Below the pieces are notes generated by a model. The model was given only the letters and a program-made list of their open reading frames with translations, did no database searches and was not told the DNA's origin. Both the position numbers and the translations under genes were made by a program. Positions 52,163-63,944 of a DNA stretch of 64,000 nucleotides are shown piece after piece. This DNA comes from Desulfatiglandales bacterium (GTDB lineage: Bacteria > Desulfobacterota > DSM-4660 > Desulfatiglandales > Desulfatiglandaceae): the NCBI GenBank assembly GCA_963662465.1, contig OY759599.1:2432001-2496000 (forward strand), in the 5' to 3' direction. Numbering within the stretch: position 1 is the stretch's first letter; each line of letters begins with the position of its first letter.

Positions 52163-53308
52163 ATGAATGCACTGCAACCATTCACTAAAGAACCGGCATT
52201 CGTTAACCGGAAGGATGAACTGGCCTATTTGCAGTCCTGGATCAGCGCCAAACCGGAGAACATCCTGTTTCTCTACGGTCCGAAGTCCAGCGGCAAAACC
52301 ACGTTGATCTATCGCTTCATTGAGGAGAATCTGACCAACGGTAAGTACGATATCAAGCACTTTAATTTGCGTGAGCTCCTTCTGGTCAACTACAAGAGCT
52401 TTTTACGGGCTTTTTTCGAGTTGAAAAGCAGCGAGCAGGTCAAGGAAACCCGTCAGTACGATTTAAAAGTCTTCAAGCTCAGCGTGGAGACCCTTAAAGG
52501 GCTGGAATCCAAAGAACTTGACCCGTTCATCGTCATGAAGCGGGAGTTAGAGAAGAGCAATAAAAAGGGCAAGCGTCCGGTAATCATCATTGACGAATTG
52601 CAGGCTCTGGACGAAATTTACTTCAATGGCGGACGCGAGTTGCTCAACGAAATATTCAATTTTTTCGTGGCCATGACCAAAGAATCGCACCTATGCCATG
52701 TGATCATTGCCAGCTCCGACGGATATTTCATCGACCGCGTTTATCAGGACAGCAAGCTGAAGAAAACCAGCCGGTTAATGGAAGTTGAATATATCGGGTA
52801 CGAAGATGTAATGGATTGGCTGAACAATCTGAACACGTTCAGCAAAATTGACCGGTTTATTTTGAATGATCAGCAGAAACAGGCGATATGGGATTTCTTC
52901 GGCGGTTCGTGCTGGGAAATATCCGATTTCTTGGGTGAGCTTTTAAATGTTTCAGATAACGGACGTATTGCAGATCAGGATTTTCAAGAATTACTTCAAA
53001 AGAAGTTAATCCTTTTTCGGTCCATGTTTGTGGAATATGCGACGATTATTCCCACGAAAAGGGCCTTGCTGCAAGAAATGGGACATGTTGTTGGGAATAA
53101 GCGAGCCTTTGTGGTCGAAGATCTTGCTGCCCTTGTAGAAGAGAAAGCATGGGAAGCAGAAGCGTTAATTGGTGAGCTGAATAACCTGGTCCGCAAAAAC
53201 TTTTTGAGCTACGCCCCTCCCCGGGCCGAGTACGCTTTGCAAGGCAGAAGCATGGAGCTGGGGCTTGAGGCATACGTGAAAATGATTGAGCAAGGCCAAA
53301 CAAGATAA
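52163..53308 (+). CDS. Archaeal-type (ATPase_2 / MJ-family-like) P-loop ATPase, copy A
   Basis: FVNRKDEL, Walker A YGPKSSGKT, Walker B IIIDELQ, FNFFVAMTKESHLCHVI and a C-terminal winged-helix-like region. Confidence 0.88.
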   Translation: MNALQPFTKEPAFVNRKDELAYLQSWISAKPENILFLYGPKSSGKTTLIYRFIEENLTNGKYDIKHFNLRELLLVNYKSFLRAFFELKSSEQVKETRQYDLKVFKLSVETLKGLESKELDPFIVMKRELEKSNKKGKRPVIIIDELQALDEIYFNGGRELLNEIFNFFVAMTKESHLCHVIIASSDGYFIDRVYQDSKLKKTSRLMEVEYIGYEDVMDWLNNLNTFSKIDRFILNDQQKQAIWDFFGGSCWEISDFLGELLNVSDNGRIADQDFQELLQKKLILFRSMFVEYATIIPTKRALLQEMGHVVGNKRAFVVEDLAALVEEKAWEAEALIGELNNLVRKNFLSYAPPRAEYALQGRSMELGLEAYVKMIEQGQTR

Positions 53309-53362
53309 TATGGGAAACAATGGGCGGCAGCGCTTGGGAAATCTACATAATCTACAACCCTC

Positions 53363-54029
53363 AATACATTTGAAGGCAAAACGGTCCTGGTGGTGGAGGT
53401 GTTTCTTATCGGTTTGAGACCTCATTACTTGACATCTGAGGGTCTTGAAAATGGGTCTTATGTTCGGCTCGGTTCAAGCAATCGGCAAGCGGATCGAGAA
53501 TTAGTAGCTGAACTGCGACGCAGTGCCGAGGGTGTTTCTTTTGATGAACTACCTATGGTGGGTTTGAGCATTGATGATCTCTTGATCTTGTGGTGGCTCA
53601 AACTATGTTTAAGGTGTATCCAAAATCCGGAATCCCGCTATTGCCCGGGTTTTTAGAGAATTGGATTTGATTGAACAATGGGGAAGAGGTATTCCACAAA
53701 TATTCACTGCTGCTCAAAGAATGAAGTTGCCTGAGCCTCAGATAATGGAAATTGGCATGCGGATAAGGTTTATCGTTCCACTGGCAGAAGCGCTTTCCGC
53801 ATTGCGATCACAACATGGAACCAGGTCAGGGGCCCAGTCAAAGGAACTGCTGGAAGCGTTGGTTGCGGGGCCTCTATCCTCCGCTGAGTTAATTGCCGTA
53901 TTGGGACTTAAATCAAAAACGGGTGCTTTTAAACGTAGCATCAGGGAGCTTTTGGAGCAGGAACTGATTGAATACACTATTCCGGATAAACCTAAAAATC
54001 GACGGCAAAAATATCGGTTAAAGAACTGA
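53363..54029 (+). pseudogene. Internally deleted AlbA_2(Schlafen-like)/HATPase_c_4/HTH protein remnant
   Basis: GKTVLVVEV..RPHY..YVRLGSSNRQAD..SFDE, then in another frame SKIRNPAIARVFRELDLIEQWGRGI, and a tail IEYTIPDKPKNRRQKYRL. The N-terminus and middle are missing. Confidence 0.75.
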
Positions 54030-54192
54030 GGTATGGCCGCCTAATAAAAACATCCGTGCTAATCCACGTCCAATAAAAAGAAGACCCATGTTGGATTTCA
54101 GGGTCTTAGACATGAGCCTATTCCAATTAGCTGCTGAGGTCCAACCCAATACCTTGCACGGCCACAACATTTTTTGCCAAGAAGGTGAAATC

Positions 54193-55368
54193 ATGAATGC
54201 ACCGCAACCTTTCACGAAGGAACCGGCGTTCGTTAACCGGAAGGATGAACTGGCCTATTTGCAGTCTTGGATCAGCGCCAAACCGGAGAACATCCTGTTC
54301 CTCTACGGCCCGAAGTCTAGCGGAAAGACCACGTTGATCTATCGCTTCATTGAGCAAAATCTGTCCAACGGAAAGTACGATATCAAGCACTTTAATTTGC
54401 GTGAACTCCTTCTGGTCAACTACGAGAGCTTTTTGCGGGCTTTTTTCGAGTTGAAAAGCAGCGAACAGGTCAAGGAAACCCGTCAGTATGATTTGAAAGT
54501 CTTCAAACTCAGCGTGGAGACCCTCAAAGGGCTTGAATCCAAAGAACTTGACCCGTTCATCGTCATAAAGCGGGAGTTGGAGAAGAGCAACAAGAAGGGA
54601 AAGCGCCCGGTGATTATCATTGATGAGTTGCAGGCGCTGGATGAGATTTACTTCAACGGCGGGCGTGAGCTGCTCAACGAGATGTTTAATTTCTTTGTGG
54701 CCATGACCAAGGAGTCGCACCTATGCCATGTGCTCATTGCCAGCTCCGACGGGTACTTCATCGAACGCATCTATCAGGACAGCAAGTTGAAGAAGACCAG
54801 CGAATTGATGGAGGTCAAGTATCTTCAGGAATCTGATGTAATGGATTGGCTGAGCGATCTGAAAACCTACAGCAAAATTTCGGATTACGTATTGAACAAT
54901 CGACAAAGACATGCCATTTGGGATTTCTTTGGTGGTTCGTGCTGGGAAATTTCAAATTTTCTCGGCAATCTATTAAATATTGCGCATAAGGGGCAGGTTT
55001 TAGACGATGAGTTTGATGAGATGCTGCAAAATAAGCTGGTTTTCTTTCGATCTATGTTTGTCGAGTATGCTACGATTATACCCCGGAAAAAAGCTCTGCT
55101 GCAAGAGATGGGACGCGCCGTTTGGGCTAGGCCGGCCTTTGTGATCGAAGACCTTGCCGGCCTTGTGGACAAGAACGTATGGCAAGCCGAAGAGTTAATT
55201 GGTGAACTGAATAACCTGGTCCGCAAGAACTTTCTGAGCTACGCTCCTCCCCGGGCTGAGTACGCTTTGCAAGGCAGAAGCATGGAGCTGGGACTTGAGG
55301 CATACGTGAAAATGATTGAGCGTAACATATTGACAACATCAGGTCGGAGCAAGTTAACCACCCAATAA
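54193..55368 (+). CDS. Archaeal-type P-loop ATPase, copy B
   Basis: Same motifs as copy A; start set by the shared leader GAAGGTGAAATCATGAATGCAC. Confidence 0.88.
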   Translation: MNAPQPFTKEPAFVNRKDELAYLQSWISAKPENILFLYGPKSSGKTTLIYRFIEQNLSNGKYDIKHFNLRELLLVNYESFLRAFFELKSSEQVKETRQYDLKVFKLSVETLKGLESKELDPFIVIKRELEKSNKKGKRPVIIIDELQALDEIYFNGGRELLNEMFNFFVAMTKESHLCHVLIASSDGYFIERIYQDSKLKKTSELMEVKYLQESDVMDWLSDLKTYSKISDYVLNNRQRHAIWDFFGGSCWEISNFLGNLLNIAHKGQVLDDEFDEMLQNKLVFFRSMFVEYATIIPRKKALLQEMGRAVWARPAFVIEDLAGLVDKNVWQAEELIGELNNLVRKNFLSYAPPRAEYALQGRSMELGLEAYVKMIERNILTTSGRSKLTTQ

Positions 55369-55416
55369 AATTACGAATATATCATTTTCCATAACGAAAG
55401 CACTCTTGCAATGCGC

Positions 55417-55650
55417 TTTTTAGAGCGAGGATGGCAGGTTAAAAAAAATAGACTGATATCAAAACGTACCAAAACCAGAGCTACATATGCCGGAAGCTGG
55501 AGGTCAAACCTGCCCAAAGCTTTTTAGACGCCCGGCATCGCGAAGCTCAGCCGATCCGGACGGGCTTGTGAGGCGAGCGTAAGCCGGGGATGCCAATCCC
55601 GACCGGTAATTTTCTTAAAAGCCCCATTTTACCCCAAAAAAGAGCTGTCT
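55417..55650. repeat. ~230-bp non-coding element, copy 1
   Basis: Alignable over its length with 55777-56012; shared blocks include ATGGCAGGTT, AATAGACTGATATCAA, GGAGGTCAAACCTGCCCA, CGGACGGGCTTGTGAGGCG and TTTTCTTAAAAGC. Confidence 0.9.
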
Positions 55651-55776
55651 TAATTTGTTACAGGTCCTTCGCTTTGCAAAAAAGTGATAAAGCAACAAAA
55701 ACACAAACGTTCCCCATTACTCCACTATTCACTATGCAAGATATGGCGCCAGCTTCTTTTCGATCTTACTGCGCCC

Positions 55777-56012
55777 TTTTTAAGGCGAGAATGGCAGGTT
55801 TAAGGAATAGACTGATATCAAGACATACCAAAACCATTGCTGCAGATGCGGGAAACCGGAGGTCAAACCTGCCCATAAAGCTCTCGACAGCCCGGCATGC
55901 CGAAACTCACCCGAGACGGACGGGCTTGTGAGGCGGGCGTTGGTCCGAGGATGCCAACCCCATCCGGTACTTTTCTTAAAAGCTCCATTTGCCCCCAAAA
56001 AAGGGGTTTCTA
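55777..56012. repeat. ~230-bp non-coding element, copy 2
   Basis: Diverged direct repeat of 55417-55650, at a period of about 360 bp. Confidence 0.9.
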
Positions 56013-56087
56013 AGCGTCAAAAACAGCCCGGTTTTGATATGGTCTTTTAATCATTGAAGTTAGTTGCTGAGGCCCGACCCCATTCCA

Positions 56088-56823
56088 TATAATCCTTTTG
56101 ATATCCTTCTCTATTTGAGGAACAAGGCATTTCGGAGTTACTGGTTTGAAACTGCTACATCTTTACAATCTGAGCGCGGGAGAGGAAATTATCGGCAGTT
56201 TCGATGTGGATAATATCAAAGTTGAAACACTCCTTTTTCAGACCGGATACCTGACGATCAAAAATTTGCAGCAAATCGGTGCTTTTCGCCGTTACGACCT
56301 TACGTATCCCAATCTCGAAGTGGAATCCAGCTTGAACAACTACATTTTGAGCGCCCTGGTTGAAGACAACCTTACAAAGACCCGGAATCAATCCGCAATT
56401 CTGGATGCATTGCAGGAAAATGATTTAAACAAGCTCAAAAACACCATACACGCCTTTTTTGCATCCATACCCAACCAATGGTATCGAAAGAACCTGATCT
56501 CCAATTATGAAGGCTATTATGCCTCAATCGTGTACTGTTACTTTGCCGCGCTGGGCTTGGACACAATCCCTGAAGATTCGACAAACCACGGAATGATTGA
56601 TCTAACCGTCCGATTTAACGGCAGGGTGTATATCATCGAATTCAAAGTGGTTGAACTGACTGCAAAAGGAAACGCTCTAAGTCAAATCAAGGCAAGAAAA
56701 TACCATGAGAAATACTCAGAAAACGACGTCTATTTGATCGGAATTGAATTTAGCAGCGAAGATCGGAATATTGTCAATTTTGAATGGGAGCGGATACTTT
56801 CTGAGAGGATTAGAAAGCCATAA
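56088..56823 (+). pseudogene. 5'-truncated AAA-ATPase-like + PD-(D/E)XK nuclease gene
   Basis: YNPFDILL..SYWFET at 56088 is out of frame with the rest; then LLFQTGYLTI, YPNLEV, YEGYYAS, GMIDL..IIEFK..ALSQI..KY. No Walker A region is present. Confidence 0.82.
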
Positions 56824-56903
56824 ATAAATGCAGAGATTTTAGTGATATAGCCAATTTATGCGACAAAAAAACACCAACCACCCCAACATAGGAAGGTGAA
56901 ATC

Positions 56904-58055
56904 ATGAATGCACTGCAACCATTCACTAAGGAACCGGCCTTCGTTAACCGGAGGGATGAACTGGCCTATTTGCAGTCATGGATCAGCGCCAAACCGGAAA
57001 ACATCCTGTTTCTCTACGGTCCGAAGTCCAGCGGCAAAACCACATTGATCTATCGCTTCATTGAGGAAAATCTCTCAAATGGCAGATACGATATCAAGCA
57101 TTTCAATCTTCGCAAATTGCTCCTCGTAAATTACGAAAGCTTTTTACGAGCTTTCTTCGAGATGAAAAGCAGCGAACAGATCAAGGAAACCAGGCAGTAC
57201 GATCTGAAAGTTTTCAAACTTAGTGTGGAAACACTCAAAGGCCTGGAGGCAAGAGAACTGGATCCCTTTGTTGTCATGGAAAGAGAGCTTGAGAAGTGCA
57301 ACAAAAAGGGAAAGCGCCCGGTGATCATCATTGATGAGCTGCAGGCACTGGATGAGATTTACTTCAACGGCGGGCGTGAATTGCTCAACGAAATATTCAA
57401 TTTTTTTGTGGCCATGACCAAAGAATCGCACCTATGCCATGTGATCATTGCCAGCTCCGACGGATATTTCATCGACCGCGTTTATCAGGACAGCAAGTTA
57501 AAGAAGACCAGTCGACTCCTGGAGATTGATTATATCGGGCACGAAGATGTAATGGATTGGTTGAACAATCTGAACACGTTCAGCAAAATTGACCGGTTTA
57601 TTTTGAATGATCAGCAGAAACAGGCAATATGGGATTTCTTCGGCGGTTCGTGCTGGGAAATATCCGATTTTTTGGGAGAGCTTCTAAATGTTTCAGATAA
57701 CGGGCGTATTGCAGATCAGGATTTTCAAGAATTACTTCAAAAGAAATTAATCCTTTTTCGTTCCATGTTTGTGGAATATGCCACCATTGAGCCGGAGAAG
57801 GAACAGCTATTGCTAAAGATAGCAGCGTTGATCACACACAACACGGCCAAGGGGTTTACGTTCAATGATTTTCGCTCACTCGTGGAGGACGATATCTGGT
57901 CGATTTCTGCATTAAGAGCAGAGTTGAACAGCCTGGTGCGAAAGAATTTTCTCAGCTACGCCCCGCCTCGGGCCGAATATGCCTTGCAGGGCCGAAGCAT
58001 GGAATTAGGGCTTCAGGCGTATGTGAAAATGATCCCGCCTGGAGAAGGAAGGTGA
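56904..58055 (+). CDS. Archaeal-type P-loop ATPase, copy C
   Basis: Same motifs with a distinct C-terminal variable block; its stop codon lies inside the leader of copy D. Confidence 0.88.
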   Translation: MNALQPFTKEPAFVNRRDELAYLQSWISAKPENILFLYGPKSSGKTTLIYRFIEENLSNGRYDIKHFNLRKLLLVNYESFLRAFFEMKSSEQIKETRQYDLKVFKLSVETLKGLEARELDPFVVMERELEKCNKKGKRPVIIIDELQALDEIYFNGGRELLNEIFNFFVAMTKESHLCHVIIASSDGYFIDRVYQDSKLKKTSRLLEIDYIGHEDVMDWLNNLNTFSKIDRFILNDQQKQAIWDFFGGSCWEISDFLGELLNVSDNGRIADQDFQELLQKKLILFRSMFVEYATIEPEKEQLLLKIAALITHNTAKGFTFNDFRSLVEDDIWSISALRAELNSLVRKNFLSYAPPRAEYALQGRSMELGLQAYVKMIPPGEGR

Positions 58056-58059
58056 AATC

Positions 58060-58780
58060 ATGAATGCACTGCAACCTTTCACGAAAGAACCGGCGTTCGT
58101 TAACCGGAAGGATGAACTGGCCTATTTGCAGTCCTGGATCAGCGCCAAACCGGAGAACATTCTGTTTCTCTACGGTCCGAAGTCCAGCGGCAAGACCACG
58201 TTGATCTATCGCTTCATTGAGGAAAATCTGACCAACGGTAAGTACGATATCAAGCACTTTAATTTGCGTGAGCTCCTTCTGGTCAACTACAAGAGCTTTT
58301 TACGGGCTTTTTTCGAGTTGAAAAGCAGCGAGCAGGTCAAGGAAACCCGTCAGTACGATTTAAAAGTCTTCAAGCTCAGTGTGGAGACCCTTAAAAGGCT
58401 GGAATCCAAAGAACTTGACCCGTTCATCGTCATGAAGCGAGAGTTGGAGAAGAGCAATAAAAAGGGCAAGCGTCCGGTAATCATCATTGACGAATTGCAA
58501 GCTCTGGACGAAATTTACTTCAATGGCGGGCGCGAGTTGCTCAACGAAATATTCAATTTTTTCGTGGCCATGACCAAAGAATCGCACCTATGCCATGTGA
58601 TCATTGCCAGCTCCGACGGATATTTCATCGACTGCGTTTATCAGGACAGCAAGCTGAAGAAAACCAGCCGGTTAATGGAGGTTGATTATATCAGTTACAA
58701 AGATGTAATGGATTGGTTGAACAATCTGAACACGTTCAGCAAAATTGACCGGTTTATTTTGAATAATCAGCAGAAACAGG
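58060..58780 (+). pseudogene. Archaeal-type P-loop ATPase, copy D, truncated by the IS66 insertion
   Basis: Near-identical to copy A up to CAGAAACAGG (58780), where similarity stops abruptly. Confidence 0.9.
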
Positions 58781-58901
58781 GTGTCCTTTCTGCAAGCCTG
58801 CATAGGGCAAATTTTTTCATTTTTTTTTGGGTGGCCGGAAGACGCTAGGTGGCGAGCTCCGTTATCCGGCGTCTTCTGTCGATCTGATTATCTGTGAGTT
58901 A

Positions 58902-59142
58902 CTAAGGCTGGGAATTTAGATTTTGCCTGTAATTCCAGGGAAGCCAGTTTTCGGGGTTTACCTTTACCAGCTCGGGATTTTTGTGAATGGCCAGGAGATA
59001 TTCGTACGGATTTTCTCCGTTCATGGCACAGGTCTGAATAAGGCTCATAAAGATGTCTCCAATGAGGGCGCCATGCTCTGTTTTGTAAAACAGGGAGTTT
59101 TTTCTGTGAAGAATGGCCTTTTTCAAAGCCCTTTCGCAGATG
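58902..59142 (-). pseudogene. tnpC: IS66 transposase TnpC, 3' part
   Basis: ICERALKKAILHRKNSLFYKTEHGA..MSLIQTCAMNGENPYEYL..WLPWNY. Confidence 0.9.
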
Positions 59143-59277
59143 TAATGCCGACTCCCGGATTATGCCGCATTACAAGAATTTTGTGGGATTATTCGTGCCT
59201 TGAAGTAGTTGCTGACGCGGCATAATTTTTGTGGGATCTTCGGTTTGGCAATCCCGCCAAACGAAAGGAGAGACCAC

Positions 59278-60522
59278 ATGAAAACATTCAGTAATTTCGT
59301 ATCGAAAAACAACCCGCATTCGAACCTATGTCAAACCCATGTCAACTCCTTCCTATCACACCTTCGCACTCTGGGGTATGCAGAACGGACGCTACGGAAA
59401 AAGCGTCCAGTTGCTGCCTCTTTTGCCCGATGGACAGTGGGGAAGCGGCTTACTGTAAACGATCTAAACGAATCCCATCTGACCGAATTCGTGGAGCGTT
59501 TGCACAAAAGGCAAAAAGCCCGGATAAAATTCGAAATGGCTGCCCTGCGGCTTTTTCTCAGCTATCTGCGCCAAGAAGGTGTGGTTCCAAATCCTCCAAT
59601 ACTTGATGCTTCACCCGTGGATGATTTTAAGCGGACCTACATAGAATACCTGCGAAAGGAGCGAGGACTCGCCGAAAACTCAATTCTTGTTTATTCGCCT
59701 TTCATCAGTGATTTTCTCAATGATCGGTTAGCCCAAACCGGTTGCATCTCTTTCCATGCATTGGATGCCCTGACAATCCAAAATTTCCTCCTCGATCGCA
59801 TTCAAAACCGGTCGAGAGAATACTCGAGGCTTCTGGCCGCCGCCCTCCGATCATTCTTGCGGTTTCTTTACCTTCGCAAAGAAATAACAATTGATTTTTC
59901 CCTATCGATTCCCAGAGTCCGTAAATGGCATCAGTCCGAGGTAATTGGCTTTCTAACCCCCGACCAGGTAGAAAGGATCCTTTCGTCAACCGATCTGTCG
60001 ACGCCACGTGGAAGACGCGATTATGCCATTTTGCTTCTTCTTGCACGACTCGGTCTGCGTGCGGGAGAGATAATCACGATAGAACTCGGTGACATCCTCT
60101 GGCGGATCGGGGAGATCGTTATTCGCGGCAAGGGCCAAGTACAGGACCGACTACCATTGGTCTCAGATGTCGGAGATGCTTTAGCGGTTTATCTACGTCA
60201 AGACAGAGGAGATAGCGTATCGCGACGGGTTTTTCTGCGAATGATTGCTCCACGCGTTGGCTTGGCCGGCCCAGGGGCGATTGGCCATATTGTACGCCTT
60301 GCATTTGCCCGAGCCGGCATATGTGCTCCGAGCCGTGGCGCAGCCCATCTCTTCCGCCACGGTCTGGCCACCAGAATGATCCGCCAGGGTGCCTCCATCG
60401 CTGAGATCTCTGAGGTTCTCCGTCATCAATCCCAGAGTTCCACAGCCATTTACGCGAAGGTCGATTTCGAGACACTCCGTGAGATTGCTCCGCCTTGGCC
60501 GGGTCAAGGAGGTGTGCGATGA
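59278..60522 (+). CDS. Tyrosine recombinase RitA
   Basis: RDYAILLLLARLGLRAGE, IRGKG, HLFRH and LRHQSQSSTAIY; AGGAG RBS. Confidence 0.92.
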   Translation: MKTFSNFVSKNNPHSNLCQTHVNSFLSHLRTLGYAERTLRKKRPVAASFARWTVGKRLTVNDLNESHLTEFVERLHKRQKARIKFEMAALRLFLSYLRQEGVVPNPPILDASPVDDFKRTYIEYLRKERGLAENSILVYSPFISDFLNDRLAQTGCISFHALDALTIQNFLLDRIQNRSREYSRLLAAALRSFLRFLYLRKEITIDFSLSIPRVRKWHQSEVIGFLTPDQVERILSSTDLSTPRGRRDYAILLLLARLGLRAGEIITIELGDILWRIGEIVIRGKGQVQDRLPLVSDVGDALAVYLRQDRGDSVSRRVFLRMIAPRVGLAGPGAIGHIVRLAFARAGICAPSRGAAHLFRHGLATRMIRQGASIAEISEVLRHQSQSSTAIYAKVDFETLREIAPPWPGQGGVR

Positions 60523-61459
60523 CTGCAATCCGTGACGCACTTGCACGGTATTTAACAGTCCGCCGTGCCCTCGGTACTGTCTACAAGAGCCAGCCACGAC
60601 ACTTGGCTATTTTGTAGATTTCCTTGACCTTCAGGGAGCAAAATTCATCACCACTGATCTCGCCCTTCGTTGGGCGTGCCAGCCAAAGCATGTGCAAAGA
60701 GCGACATGGGCACGCCGGCTTACTATGGTCAGGCAGTTTGGTGCTTGGCTGAGTGCATTCGACCCGCGAACGGAAGTACCGCCAAAACGGCTCCTCAATG
60801 CCCGTCATCGGCGCAGTAAGCCCTACATCTATACCGAACAGGAAATAGAACATCTCATGATCGAGGCCGCTTTGCTCCCGTCACCGATGGGATTGCGCGC
60901 ATTAACCTATGTGACGCTCATAGGTCTTCTTGCCGTTACGGGTATTCGGCCAGGTGAAGTGGTAGCTTTGAATCTGTCTGATGTGGATCTAAAGAACGGT
61001 ATTCTTGTAATTCGGCAGACGAAATTTGGAAAGTCCCGTTTTGTTCCGATTGACGATTCGACATGTTCCGCCCTTTTGGATTATGCAAATCGACGCAATA
61101 ACTTTTACACACGTTTTCAGACCAACAGTTTTTTTGTCTCCGAACGAGGCACAAGACTAAGTCTTGGATCCGCCCGACGTACATTCGCCAAAGTATCATG
61201 TGCTGTCGGTCTTCGAACTGCAAAAGATGGCTGCCGAATCGGTCGCGGACCAAGGCTTCAGGATTTTAGGCATACGTTTGCAACAAGAAGAATTATCAAA
61301 TGGTATCAGGCCGGATTGGACGTGAACAGAGAGTTGCCAAAGCTCACTTCCTATCTCGGCCACTCAAACGTCAGTCATACTTATTGGTATATTGAGGCGG
61401 TCCCGGAGCTCCTCCAGCTCGCTTCCGAGCACATGGGCCGGCAAGGAGGTGCACAATGA
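60519..61459 (+). pseudogene. Tyrosine recombinase RitB with an apparent 1-bp deletion near 60579
   Basis: ATG 60519 gives MTAIRDALARYLTVRRALGT, then runs to a stop. The protein continues in another frame as LQEPATTLGYFVDFL..ALRWA..TGIRPGE..TKFGKSR..QDFRHTFA..YLGH..TYWY. Confidence 0.88.
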
Positions 61460-62451
61460 AAGCCTCCAGCTTTTCATCACTTCTCCAGCGTTTCTTTACG
61501 GACAGATTGCTCGCACAGCTTGGCGCCAGTCCGCACACTGTTGCCGCATACCGGGATACCTTCCGTCTGTTGCTTCGCTTCGCCGCGAAACACTTCGGGC
61601 GTTCGCCTTCTGAACTGCGCATAGAAGAGCTCGATGTTTCTTTCCTGTGCAAGTTTATTCAACACCTTGAACTTGATCGCTGTAATTGCATCCGGACACG
61701 GAATAACCGCCTTTCCGCCCTGCAAGGTTTCTTTCGGTATGTGTCCTTCAGTGAACCCGCACTGTCATTGCACTGTCAGAGGGTTCTGGCGATCCCTGCC
61801 AAACGGTACGAGCGCCGTCCGGTTGAGTTCCTGTCGGATGAAGAAACTGCCGCTCTTGTTGCAGTTCCCGATTCAAAAAAATGGATCGGCAGGCGTGACC
61901 GAGCGCTCCTGTTGCTCGCCTTACAGACAGGATTGCGAAATAGCGAAATCACATCGCTTCAGTGCAAGGATGTGGAACTCGGCACCGGTGCTCACGTCCG
62001 TTGCCTCGGAAAGGGTCGAAAGATGCGATGTACCCCTTTGCGCCCTGATGTCGTCGCAGTGCTGAAGAAATGGTTAAAGGAGCAAGATGGCCATCCACAA
62101 GATCCTCTCTTCCCAAGCTCACGCGGTTTACGTCTCAGTGCAGATGCTCTCCAGCGACTCGTTGCCAAACATGCAGCCATGGCGAGTCATACATGTCCAT
62201 CCCTAAAAGGGAAAACAGTTACACCCCACACCTTGCGGCATTCGGCGGCCATGAGCCTGCTCCGACGTGGTGTTGATCTGACCGTGATTGCTCTCTGGCT
62301 CGGGCACGAATCAAATGAGACAACACAAATCTACTTGCATGCTGATATGGGAATTAAGGAGCAAGCCCTTGCCCATACCACTGCAAGTGGTTCCATACCT
62401 GATCGGTATCTTCCTGAAGACCCTTTGCTAACATTCCTTGAGAGCCTTTGA
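61456..62451 (+). CDS. Tyrosine recombinase RitC
   Basis: ASPHTVAAYRDTF, TRNNRL, TGLRNSE, GKGRK, PHTLRHS and WLGHE..TTQIY. Confidence 0.93.
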   Translation: MKASSFSSLLQRFFTDRLLAQLGASPHTVAAYRDTFRLLLRFAAKHFGRSPSELRIEELDVSFLCKFIQHLELDRCNCIRTRNNRLSALQGFFRYVSFSEPALSLHCQRVLAIPAKRYERRPVEFLSDEETAALVAVPDSKKWIGRRDRALLLLALQTGLRNSEITSLQCKDVELGTGAHVRCLGKGRKMRCTPLRPDVVAVLKKWLKEQDGHPQDPLFPSSRGLRLSADALQRLVAKHAAMASHTCPSLKGKTVTPHTLRHSAAMSLLRRGVDLTVIALWLGHESNETTQIYLHADMGIKEQALAHTTASGSIPDRYLPEDPLLTFLESL

Positions 62452-62560
62452 TTATGCCGATTGAAAGAGCCATGAGAATAAGGGGTCCAACGCAGTTTCG
62501 ACCAGTTAAAACGGATAAAATTGGCAATACGGCATAATCCGGGAGTCGGCATTACATCTG

Positions 62561-62580
62561 TTATGCCGCTCGCGGCATAA
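62561..62580. repeat. 20-bp palindrome made of two RIT arm motifs
   Basis: TTATGCCG-CTCG-CGGCATAA, bracketed by CATCTG and CAGATG. Confidence 0.95.
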
Positions 62581-63944
62581 CAGATGTTGTTGTCAAGGGG
62601 CGCTCCAGGAACTTCCAGGAACCGGGTTAACGCCTTCCAGTGATTCAGCATATACTGAATTGCCTTTCCCAAACCGGAATTCGGTTCCACGAGTTTTTCG
62701 TCCAATTGCTTGTTGAGCCAGCAATACAATTTATCCATCAAGGGTTTGCTTTCAGCCTGATGGAAGGCCAGACGCTCTTCGGGTGACATGTTTTCGTCCC
62801 TGGCAATCTGATCATTGTGATACACTTTGGCAAGGGTATCGATCACAAACCGGCACTCTTCTGGAAAGCTCGGGGCGACATCCACGAAGTATCGGCGGGC
62901 ATGGGTCAGGCAGTTTGCCATAATGACATCCAGATCCTCCGATGAATTTCGAGACAAGGCATCGCACATAAGCTGAGGTGGACTGAGACCGGTCAGGCGA
63001 TTTTCAAGAAGCGCCTTCAGATTTTCACCCGCGTGATTTCTGCCGGTAAAATAAAGAACCGCCTGGCGGTCATCCATTTTGGATATAACGCCGGTGGTAA
63101 AAATCCCTTTTCGACCGTTTTTGGTTTCACCTTCCTTCATGAGGCTCAGAACTTTTCCCGTCGTATCGTCAATGTGGAACAACTCCCCCTGTGCGGATTG
63201 TTTCAGTAGTTCGATATACGGCCCTTTGGCCTCCAAACCCAATGGCTCAACGATACCCCACTGGGTTGATGCGGGAACCGGAACACCCATCATGGCTTGA
63301 AACTGCTGCAACCGATAGAAAGGAACGCCGTTGGCGTATTTTAGAAGGGCAATGGAAACCGCAACCGTTTCATCATGTTTCTGAGTTCCCATATCTTCAG
63401 GAGGCGTTGCGGTAAAAATTTGGCCGCACAGGTTGCAGCGAAGCTTTTCCAGTTCATAAATCGTTCCCGTTAAAGGCGGCGAACCCTTAATCCGGATTAA
63501 CTTTTCGGGAACTTTTAACCGATACACTTTTCCCCTGGGACATTCCGGACAGGGGTCACCATGTTTGAGACTCTCGTGGCTTATGAACTTTCTTTCGGCG
63601 CCGGTAAAAGCCGAAGCACCGTTTCGACCATGGCCTTTCGGTGGGGGGTTGCCGCCTTTTGGACCGGGATCATCTTCCGGATTATCGCCGTCTTCGGAAT
63701 CGGCGTCATCTTCCGGATCATTAAACACTTTATCTTTCTTTTCGGATTTTTGCCCGAACAAGAGGTTTAGCAGCCGCTTGATGGATGCGGCCTTCTGGTC
63801 CAGTACCTGACTCAGGGCTTCAATGGTATCCGCCATGACCTTGATAATCTCGTAGTCGGATTCGGAAACCGCCGGTTTTATCCTTTCAAGAAGGGACTTG
63901 ACGTCTTCGGGGGTTAATTCGAGTTTTTGGGGTTTATCCGGCAT
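62581..63944 (-). pseudogene. tnpC: IS66 transposase TnpC, 5' part, interrupted by the RIT element
   Basis: LFGQKSEK, CPEC..CNLC Zn finger, PFYRL, HIDDT, MCDA, CLTHARRYF, GKAIQY..W and PLDNNIC at the break. Confidence 0.93.

What the first reader, a model, noticed from the sequence alone, without database searches (positions are those of the whole stretch)
59137..62586. RIT element with three copies of its 6-bp target and an extra palindrome: geometry for both inversion and scarless excision
Seen: host-CAGATG-[TAATGCCG..IRL..ritABC..IRR..CGGCATTA]-CATCTG-[TTATGCCG CTCG CGGCATAA]-CAGATG-host. The host hexamer occurs as a direct repeat at the outer borders and again inverted inside, where it is the spacer of a complete arm-6bp-arm site. 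The 31-bp inverted repeat (59137-59167 / 62530-62560) therefore includes target-derived DNA. Symmetric inner arm motifs lie at 59218-59225 and 62452-62459. Established: tyrosine recombinases exchange strands across a 6-8 bp spacer; direct sites give excision and inverted sites give inversion. Inference: the gene trio can flip while the palindrome stays fixed, and the whole unit can excise precisely. Getting the target hexamer into the internal site needs a multi-step insertion with spacer conversion, which is a clue to a poorly understood RIT mechanism. RIT-adjacent palindromes have, as I recall, been noted before; I cannot judge how novel the triple-spacer layout is.
Basis: partly seen in the sequence, partly recalled or inferred. 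Interest (0 to 1): 0.8.

Follow-up and report, generated by a model that had tools for sequence, protein, structure and literature searches.

The report
Transposon palindrome records previous insertion sites
This three-recombinase (RIT) transposon carries a 20-base palindrome between two 6-base spacers that match earlier insertion sites rather than the present one, which suggests that the element likely moves as a circle, usually switching the palindrome to its other end, and makes a so far unresolved transposition mechanism testable.

Summary
The palindrome is a general, published RIT feature; this scan also noted it on another genome (e1-4549129). What I add is an inheritance rule. The hexamer at the palindrome-free end (a) is the present target. 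The two beside the palindrome (b, c') usually repeat the a and b of a sister copy whose palindrome sits at the opposite end: new (a,b,c') = (target, old a, old b). This fits 10 of 27 informative copies in discovery groups and 11 of 23 in held-out rhizobial plasmids (shuffle p 0.007 to 0.00005); one further genome (0 of 4) fits a same-end route instead. In this genome, copy D's odd inner spacer is the target hexamer of another IS66. Loop orientation follows circular permutation (33 of 34 ends), not flipping in place. Most likely a one-strand circle carries the palindrome, folds into an attC-like site and integrates through the old inner junction (inferred). I did not find the rule in the papers I could search; Ricker 2013 was not available.

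The parts
58781..59136 (-). Distal part of the interrupted IS66-family transposase gene and IS end (host side next to the palindrome-free end)
   Evidence: Identical flank at copies A-D and in the intact copy C1:7133218-7134993
59137..59142 (+). Spacer a: the present target's own hexamer (codons of the D-N-N-I-C-E motif)
   Evidence: Equals the hexamer of the empty IS66 copy
59143..59167 (+). Left terminal repeat: arm (59143-50), 9 nt, arm (59160-67); similarity extends to 59171
59218..59225 (-). Inward-facing third arm, left end
   Evidence: such an arm lies 50-121 nt inside both ends in 94 of 95 full-size elements
59278..60522 (+). ritA, 414 aa tyrosine recombinase with two SAM-like domains
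   Evidence: Pfam PF00589, PF02899, PF13495; catalytic motifs
60519..61459 (+). ritB, 313 aa in sister copies; one base short near 60578 in this assembly
61456..62451 (+). ritC, 331 aa tyrosine recombinase
62452..62459 (+). Inward-facing third arm, right end
62530..62554 (-). Right terminal repeat (arm, 9 nt, arm)
62555..62560 (+). Spacer b (inner): by the rule the target of the parent copy; here the same IS66 hexamer
62561..62580 (.). 20-bp palindrome cassette: two back-to-back arms with a 4-nt loop; travels with the element
62581..62586 (+). Spacer c (outer): by the rule the parent's inner spacer, i.e. the target two hops back; here the same hexamer
62587..63944 (-). Proximal part of the interrupted IS66-family transposase gene
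   Evidence: Pfam PF03050

Best explanation
This is a RIT transposon inserted in an IS66 transposase gene, and its palindrome is a travelling cassette whose two flanking hexamers match earlier insertion sites; the element likely copies itself out as a one-strand circle that is predicted to fold into a recombination site and to insert through the old inner junction, so that the palindrome ends up at the opposite end. Shown by sequence comparison: (1) spacer a is the present target; (2) in most traceable cases a daughter's (b, c') equal the (a, b) of a copy with the palindrome at the other end; (3) the loop turns with the end; (4) only the two spacer bases nearest the cut are conserved. Inferred: step 1, one strand is cut at host|a and at palindrome|c and joined, giving a circle element-b-palindrome-a-element, dropping c and leaving the donor in place; step 2, the joint folds back (repeat on repeat, b opposite a, palindrome stem), the palindrome supplying the second arm as in an integron attC site; step 3, a single exchange at element|b, where the two conserved bases come first, puts the strand into the target, and replication completes it. 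On that strand only the old junction offers this cut, which would explain the switch; the minority of same-end events would come from a replicated, double-stranded circle. The window copy shows one hexamer three times because its last hops were likely all into the same IS66. The inheritance rule itself I put at about 0.85; the one-strand fold-back detail at about 0.55.
For: Target slot: where an empty copy of the target was found and a differs from c', it matched a in 4 of 5, c' in 0 of 5, neither in 1; among 20 pairs of copies in the same target, a was equal in 18, c' in 5 (pairs not independent). Rule: best of 36 slot rules in both sets, 10 of 27 (discovery; end-shuffle p 0.007, hexamer-shuffle p 0.0001) and 11 of 23 (held-out; p 0.0017 and 0.00005); over all 72 copies in 22 groups, 17 switch-only, 4 both, 4 same-end-only, 29 no parent in the group, 18 uninformative. 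Multi-step chains: L163>L162>L161, L459>L460>L456, L480>L482>L481. L494 carries seven bases of the flank of the off-target copy L476. Copy D's inner spacer TAATGG is the hexamer at the homologous codons of a third IS66 family of this genome, the only hit of the motif search. Loop phase 33 of 34; palindrome at ritA end 45, ritC end 42, unassigned 11. First two spacer bases identical in 0.89-0.99 of pairs, the last four in 0.47-0.77, like IntDOT's need for two matching bases at the first exchange (PMC2817482, abstract). 21 daughters have a fitting parent still present in the same strain or assembly. Precedent for a one-strand circle carrying the left flank: SE elements (PMC10214605, passages and part of section 3).
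Against: G496: all 5 copies have the palindrome at the ritA end, none has a switch-rule parent, 3 of 4 informative copies fit the same-end rule; siblings of an unassembled parent could explain only part. 29 of 54 informative copies have no parent in their group. Copy D's loop is out of phase. c' equals a more often than b does (39 vs 26 of 97; discordant 23 vs 10, p 0.035), so spacer match helps or c' is sometimes converted to the target. The fold (95 of 97) follows trivially from an inverted repeat plus a palindrome and is not evidence of single strands in vivo. No circle was observed (contigs drop rare forms). Groups share ancestry and 6 of the 7 held-out strains were seen only as plasmids; the held-out set is one RIT family.
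Confidence: 0.58

Rival explanations
1. Double-stranded circle with two complete att junctions (element-b-palindrome and palindrome-a-element). Either can integrate; the old junction is preferred because the new one is still mismatched or protein-bound. The palindrome is simply two back-to-back binding arms and never folds.
For: Gives the same switch products and also the same-end products: 4 same-end-only copies, among them three in G496, and L465 from L456 across strains. One metagenome contig end reads end-spacer-palindrome-spacer-end (L260; only 20 nt on one side).
Against: The two terminal repeats are near-identical and either end can be used, so nothing in the duplex sequence explains 17 switch-only against 4 same-end-only. 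Loops are self-complementary in 154 and one mismatch away in 94 of 257 ends, which fits a stem but also a 10-bp binding consensus.
Confidence: 0.22
2. No free circle: the inner site first recombines directly with the target (cointegrate or inversion), then the two outer sites resolve the product. The same spacer shift results.
For: Palindromes flanked on both sides by related target halves: L218, L267, the second palindrome of L245, and by eye L309, the predicted intermediate.
Against: Also predicts palindrome-less elements between two distal target halves: 0 of 26 two-ended rhizobial copies (24 direct, one with a 7-base spacer, one with an insertion at the site). Predicts an emptied donor holding c: parents persist and the IS66 at C1:7672788 keeps its own hexamer. 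The remnants can also arise by deletion from two-palindrome elements, or be assembly fold-backs.
Confidence: 0.13
3. One reading: the spacers are copies of the present target, and homology-dependent exchange flips the gene trio under a fixed palindrome or excises the unit precisely.
For: True of the geometry of copies B and C; copy D has the genes reversed with the loop unchanged relative to the host; one IS66 whose hexamer D carries is now empty.
Against: All three spacers equal in only 16 of 97 elements; loop phase 33 of 34 against flipping in place; a flip of B or C cannot produce D's foreign inner spacer; no rejoined palindrome-only scar recognised.
Confidence: 0.05

Closest known systems
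RIT elements (Van Houdt 2012, PMC3414803; Janssen 2010, PMC2864759; Ricker 2013, not available)
   Same: Three overlapping tyrosine recombinase genes, about 3.4 kb, 28-29 bp inverted repeat, insertion in an IS66 transposase gene; a flanking palindrome is mentioned (PMC3414803 section 11; 47 and 51 bp imperfect palindromes in PMC5737581, passage).
   Different: Those texts give no role for the palindrome, no spacer inheritance and no end switching; PMC10214605 (2023, passage) says RIT transposition had not been reproduced in the laboratory.
Bifidobacterium mobile integrase cassettes (Lee 2008, PMC2430713)
   Same: Three integrases, inverted repeat and a conserved 20-bp palindrome (passages, supplement legend).
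   Different: Other arm sequence; spacers and mechanism not analysed in the passages I saw; I did not test the rule on them.
SE elements and Tn554 (PMC10214605)
   Same: Tyrosine recombinases; 6-bp flank of the donor carried to the new site as a footprint; target hexamer kept at one end; proposed one-strand circle, donor not emptied.
   Different: One footprint, fixed left and right ends, no palindrome cassette, other proteins. The RIT keeps two footprints and changes ends.
CTnDOT / Tn916 coupling sequences (PMC2817482, abstract; Tn916 recalled)
   Same: Exchange tolerates mismatched spacers, with one or two matching bases at the first cut.
   Different: Cut-and-paste through a duplex circle with one joint; single integrase plus accessory factors.
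Integron attC and CTX-phage attP (recalled, no call)
   Same: A folded single strand as substrate for a tyrosine recombinase, one exchange, resolution by replication: what the best model works like.
   Different: Here the site would be built from the element's two ends plus a carried palindrome; single-strand use is not shown.

Membership tests
RIT element | Three adjacent co-oriented tyrosine recombinase genes with short overlaps | tested here: met
   PF00589 in all three; 4-base ATGA overlaps at 60519-22 and 61456-59; 414/313/331 aa
RIT element | RitA with two core-binding domains (PMC8138268, passage) | tested here: met
   Two SAM-like Pfam hits, residues 23-93 and 121-201
RIT element | Terminal inverted repeat of about 28-34 bp, length about 3.5 kb | tested here: met
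   25 perfect, 29 near-perfect bases without the spacer; 3412 bp
RIT element | Multiple near-identical copies in genes of other mobile elements | tested here: met
   5 copies, all at the same IS66 motif
RIT element | Assignment to a named RIT subfamily or to the CH34 archetype proteins | not tested
   No direct comparison; closest plasmid RitC 69% identical
SE element | 6-bp footprint from the donor's flank; target hexamer kept at one end | tested here: met
SE element | Gene set intA, tfp, intB, srap | tested here: not met
   Only three recombinase genes of 313-414 aa between the repeats
SE element | Strand-biased circle, no empty site | not testable with these tools
   Only assembled contigs available
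Cre/lox-type invertible or excisable cassette | Identical spacers at the recombining sites | tested here: not met
   All equal in 16 of 97; all different in 34 of 97
Cre/lox-type invertible or excisable cassette | Both orientations under a fixed outer frame | tested here: not met
   33 of 34 ends in permutation phase; one exception
Integron attC-type substrate | Folded single strand is what is recombined | tested here: inconclusive
   Fold predicted in 95 of 97, but guaranteed by the repeats; no data in vivo

The most novel reading that the evidence does not exclude
RITs are a distinct kind of copy-out transposon in which a palindrome cassette leapfrogs from end to end: a one-strand circle folds into an attC-like site, each hop reverses the gene trio relative to its target, and every copy stores its last two insertion sites in order, a natural first-in-first-out record that lets the order of transposition between replicons and strains be read from genomes.
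Probability: 0.45. Interest if true: 0.86.

Novelty: new variant of a known kind. Interest (0 to 1): 0.73.

Why it matters
RITs occur in many phyla, yet how three recombinases move them is described as unresolved in the papers I could read (PMC5737581, PMC10214605). The rule fixes the mobile unit (it must include the palindrome and the flank spacer), names the joint of the intermediate, says which junction is used and predicts every junction base of a daughter, so one marked element tests it. It also corrects annotation (the apparent 6-bp target duplication is often a footprint), lets copy genealogies be ordered, and points to an integration system that needs only about two matching spacer bases and targets conserved coding motifs.

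Tried and rejected
Mis-assembly: rejected. Inner spacer always equals own target: rejected. Time-reversed reading (target in c', footprint in a): matches the same pairs backwards (9 of 26, 8 of 22) but fails on empty sites and shared hosts. Rule with the parent's c' carried: 9 of 27 in discovery but 5 of 23 held-out, and it cannot bring new hexamers in. Strict switch-only rule: too strong (G496). Search of 400 genomes of the own phylum: no match outside G000; 2 of 60 relatives have an arm-6-arm site, so no close comparison set. Empty-site search in G080 and G098 gave recombined or diverged targets only. Search for a circle joint in contigs: none listed, uninformative; the one skip joint (run X3) is the empty IS66 form that the genome holds anyway; no RNA holder listed. 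A Roseobacter-type element found no near relatives in plasmids. Nine of the 15 regions were short contig ends or already held and were not analysed. One search timed out and was redone. No protein structure or complex job was run; the division of labour among RitA, B and C is untested. Replication-strand bias was not tested.
Full report
OBSERVATION. The layout is in the sequence exactly as described. The element is 3412 bp, encodes three tyrosine recombinases and interrupts an IS66-family transposase at its D-N-N-I-C-E codons; an intact copy of that IS with one CAGATG is in the same genome. Read-derived contigs of one sample support the palindrome junction and its variants, and none of the four runs laid shows the ritB frameshift (depths fit four to five copies, and the sample may be the source of the assembly, so this is a check of the assembly and not independent biology).

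NOTATION. a = hexamer outside the palindrome-free end, b = hexamer between element and palindrome, c' = reverse complement of the hexamer between palindrome and host; all in one register, so the window copy is (CATCTG, CATCTG, CATCTG).

THE OWN GENOME. Five copies. B (window) and C: all three spacers equal, palindrome at the ritC end. A: a as in B, but b and c' are TATCTG, the hexamer beside copy E, which lies in a second, 70% identical IS66 and has the palindrome at the ritA end (E is truncated, so its a is not seen). D: palindrome at the ritA end, b = TAATGG. A motif search for that hexamer in IS66 context gave one hit, at the homologous codons (D-N-N-N-G-E) of a third, single-copy, empty IS66 at C1:7672788. 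So the inner spacer records where the lineage was before.

GENERALITY. A palindrome-only scan of metagenomes gave 122 distinct sites, 83 directly beside a recognisable element end; in viral contigs 15 of 48. These sets were chosen by the motif and say nothing about prevalence; among rhizobial copies chosen by similarity of the element body, 24 of 26 two-ended copies have the palindrome directly at one end, one after a 7-base spacer and one displaced by an insertion. In 97 complete single-palindrome elements: all spacers equal 16, a=c' only 23, a=b only 10, b=c' only 14, all different 34; the first two bases are conserved, the last four vary. Targets are conserved coding motifs of ArdC-like, IS66, IS256, IS1634, DUF3489, integrase, reverse-transcriptase and relaxase genes (70 of 94 assigned by rough motifs that I partly recalled).

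WHICH SLOT IS THE TARGET. Empty copies: L144's IS is empty at L181 with a, not c'; the miniature element L172 has a equal to its own intron type and c' equal to a second intron type of the same genome. Overall 4 for a, 0 for c', 1 neither, 4 uninformative, of 120 elements examined (the rest had no empty copy in hand); same-target pairs share a in 18 of 20 and c' in 5 of 20.

THE RULE. In multi-copy genomes a daughter's (b, c') equal (a, b) of a copy with the palindrome at the other end. I wrote this down, then fetched 18 rhizobial plasmid records and their further copies. Of 36 slot rules it ranks first in both sets: 10 of 27 informative copies in 14 discovery groups and 11 of 23 in 7 held-out strains, against shuffle means of 6.8 and 6.9 (ends shuffled; p 0.007, 0.0017) and 2.2 and 1.2 (hexamers shuffled; p 0.0001, 0.00005). 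Ten of 23 held-out copies are siblings with the same (b, c') and end, as the rule predicts. Caveats: the rule was chosen on the discovery set; L461 and L462 (one of the 11 hits) had been seen before; exact duplicates (L153, L157, L464, L502), strains with a single copy of a family, most one-ended loci and the diverged elements of G069 were left out; L456's b lacks one base at the record's join and was completed by assumption; two 7-base spacers were cut to six; kin are not independent. A second held-out genome, G496, went against it: five copies, all at the ritA end, 0 of 4 by the switch rule, 3 of 4 by the same-end rule (b kept, c' = parent's a). Total: 17 switch-only, 4 both, 4 same-end-only, 29 without a parent, 18 uninformative, of 72 copies in 22 groups. 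Both routes put the parent's a into a circle joint beside the palindrome; they differ in which junction integrates.

PERMUTATION, NOT FLIPPING. If the trio flipped under a fixed palindrome, an asymmetric loop would read the same from either end; if the unit is circularly permuted it reverses. It reverses in 33 of 34 ends in 10 groups. Ends are balanced, 45 to 42. Five two-palindrome elements were seen; in L060 and L160 the spacers are swapped between the ends, as expected from recombination between copies of opposite type (inference).

MECHANISM. From established tyrosine-recombinase chemistry (recalled: staggered cuts at the 5' side of the spacer on each strand), the two conserved bases come first only on one strand at each site. 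The products show the target spacer staying with its distal half and b staying with the palindrome, which is the outcome of that one exchange. On the donor strand that yields a circle holding a, this cut exists only at the old inner junction; this explains the switch without any asymmetry between the two repeats. Such a strand can form a complete arm-6-arm duplex only by folding, which the palindrome allows (-54 kcal/mol for the window joint; 95 of 97 elements; weak evidence, as it follows from the repeats). I therefore favour a one-strand, copy-out circle, with a duplex circle and a circle-free two-step route as rivals. None of these steps was observed.

COMPARISON AND NOVELTY. It is a RIT by every feature tested. 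The palindrome is in print (PMC3414803, section 11 read whole; PMC2430713 and PMC5737581, passages). Footprints and one-strand circles are known from SE elements and Tn554 (PMC10214605, passages and part 1 of section 3), mismatch-tolerant exchange from IntDOT (PMC2817482, abstract). PMC8138268 and PMC2864759 were seen as passages. I found no account of two ordered footprints or end switching in searches. Ricker 2013 is not held, Van Houdt 2009 was not read, no supplement file was opened, and I recall, without being able to check, thesis work on RIT mobility; any of these may anticipate part of the result.

VERDICT. Real feature; first interpretation partly right; a new variant-level mechanism for a known family, with a sharp laboratory test. 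Interest 0.73.

Noticed in passing
L400:1744-4390 (also L470, L474, L492; similar end in L316): An element of about 2.6 kb with a 689-aa large serine recombinase (PF00239, PF07508, PF13408) and a 105-aa partner is inserted precisely at an arm of the RIT inner site in four rhizobial loci: a possible parasite of the RIT attachment site.
   Followed up: partly
L171, L172, L052, L410, L303: Miniature RIT derivatives of 221-352 bp with both repeats, palindrome and foreign spacers but no genes; two copies in G074 suggest mobilisation in trans.
   Followed up: partly
L018, L060, L160, L200, L206; L179: Elements with a palindrome at both ends (spacers swapped in L060 and L160) and one with two palindromes in tandem.
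   Followed up: partly
G000:C1:4723182-4723201 (outside the window): Orphan palindrome with another loop, followed by an integrase C-terminal remnant; probably left by a different RIT family.
   Followed up: partly
L218, L267, L245, L309: Palindromes flanked on both sides by related target halves, without an element.
   Followed up: partly
L494, L176: Seven-base inner spacers; L494's equals seven bases of the flank of the off-target copy L476, so the host-side cut can shift by one base.
   Followed up: partly
window 52163-58848: Tandem array of closely related archaeal-type ATPases (PF01637 for the two tested); the fourth copy is cut by the IS66 that holds the RIT, and more paralogues follow beyond the window.
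   Followed up: no
G000:C1:4395596-4400320 (copy C): A 4.7-kb multi-copy insertion interrupts the end of ritA in copy C; copies C and D share the same truncation of the host IS.
   Followed up: no
L458, L463, L470: RIT copies of 5.7 kb that carry about 2.3 kb of extra DNA between ritA and the end and still fit the spacer rule across strains.
   Followed up: partly
L498, L500: Inner spacer that breaks the family's conserved dinucleotide and resembles an arm start; source not found.
   Followed up: no
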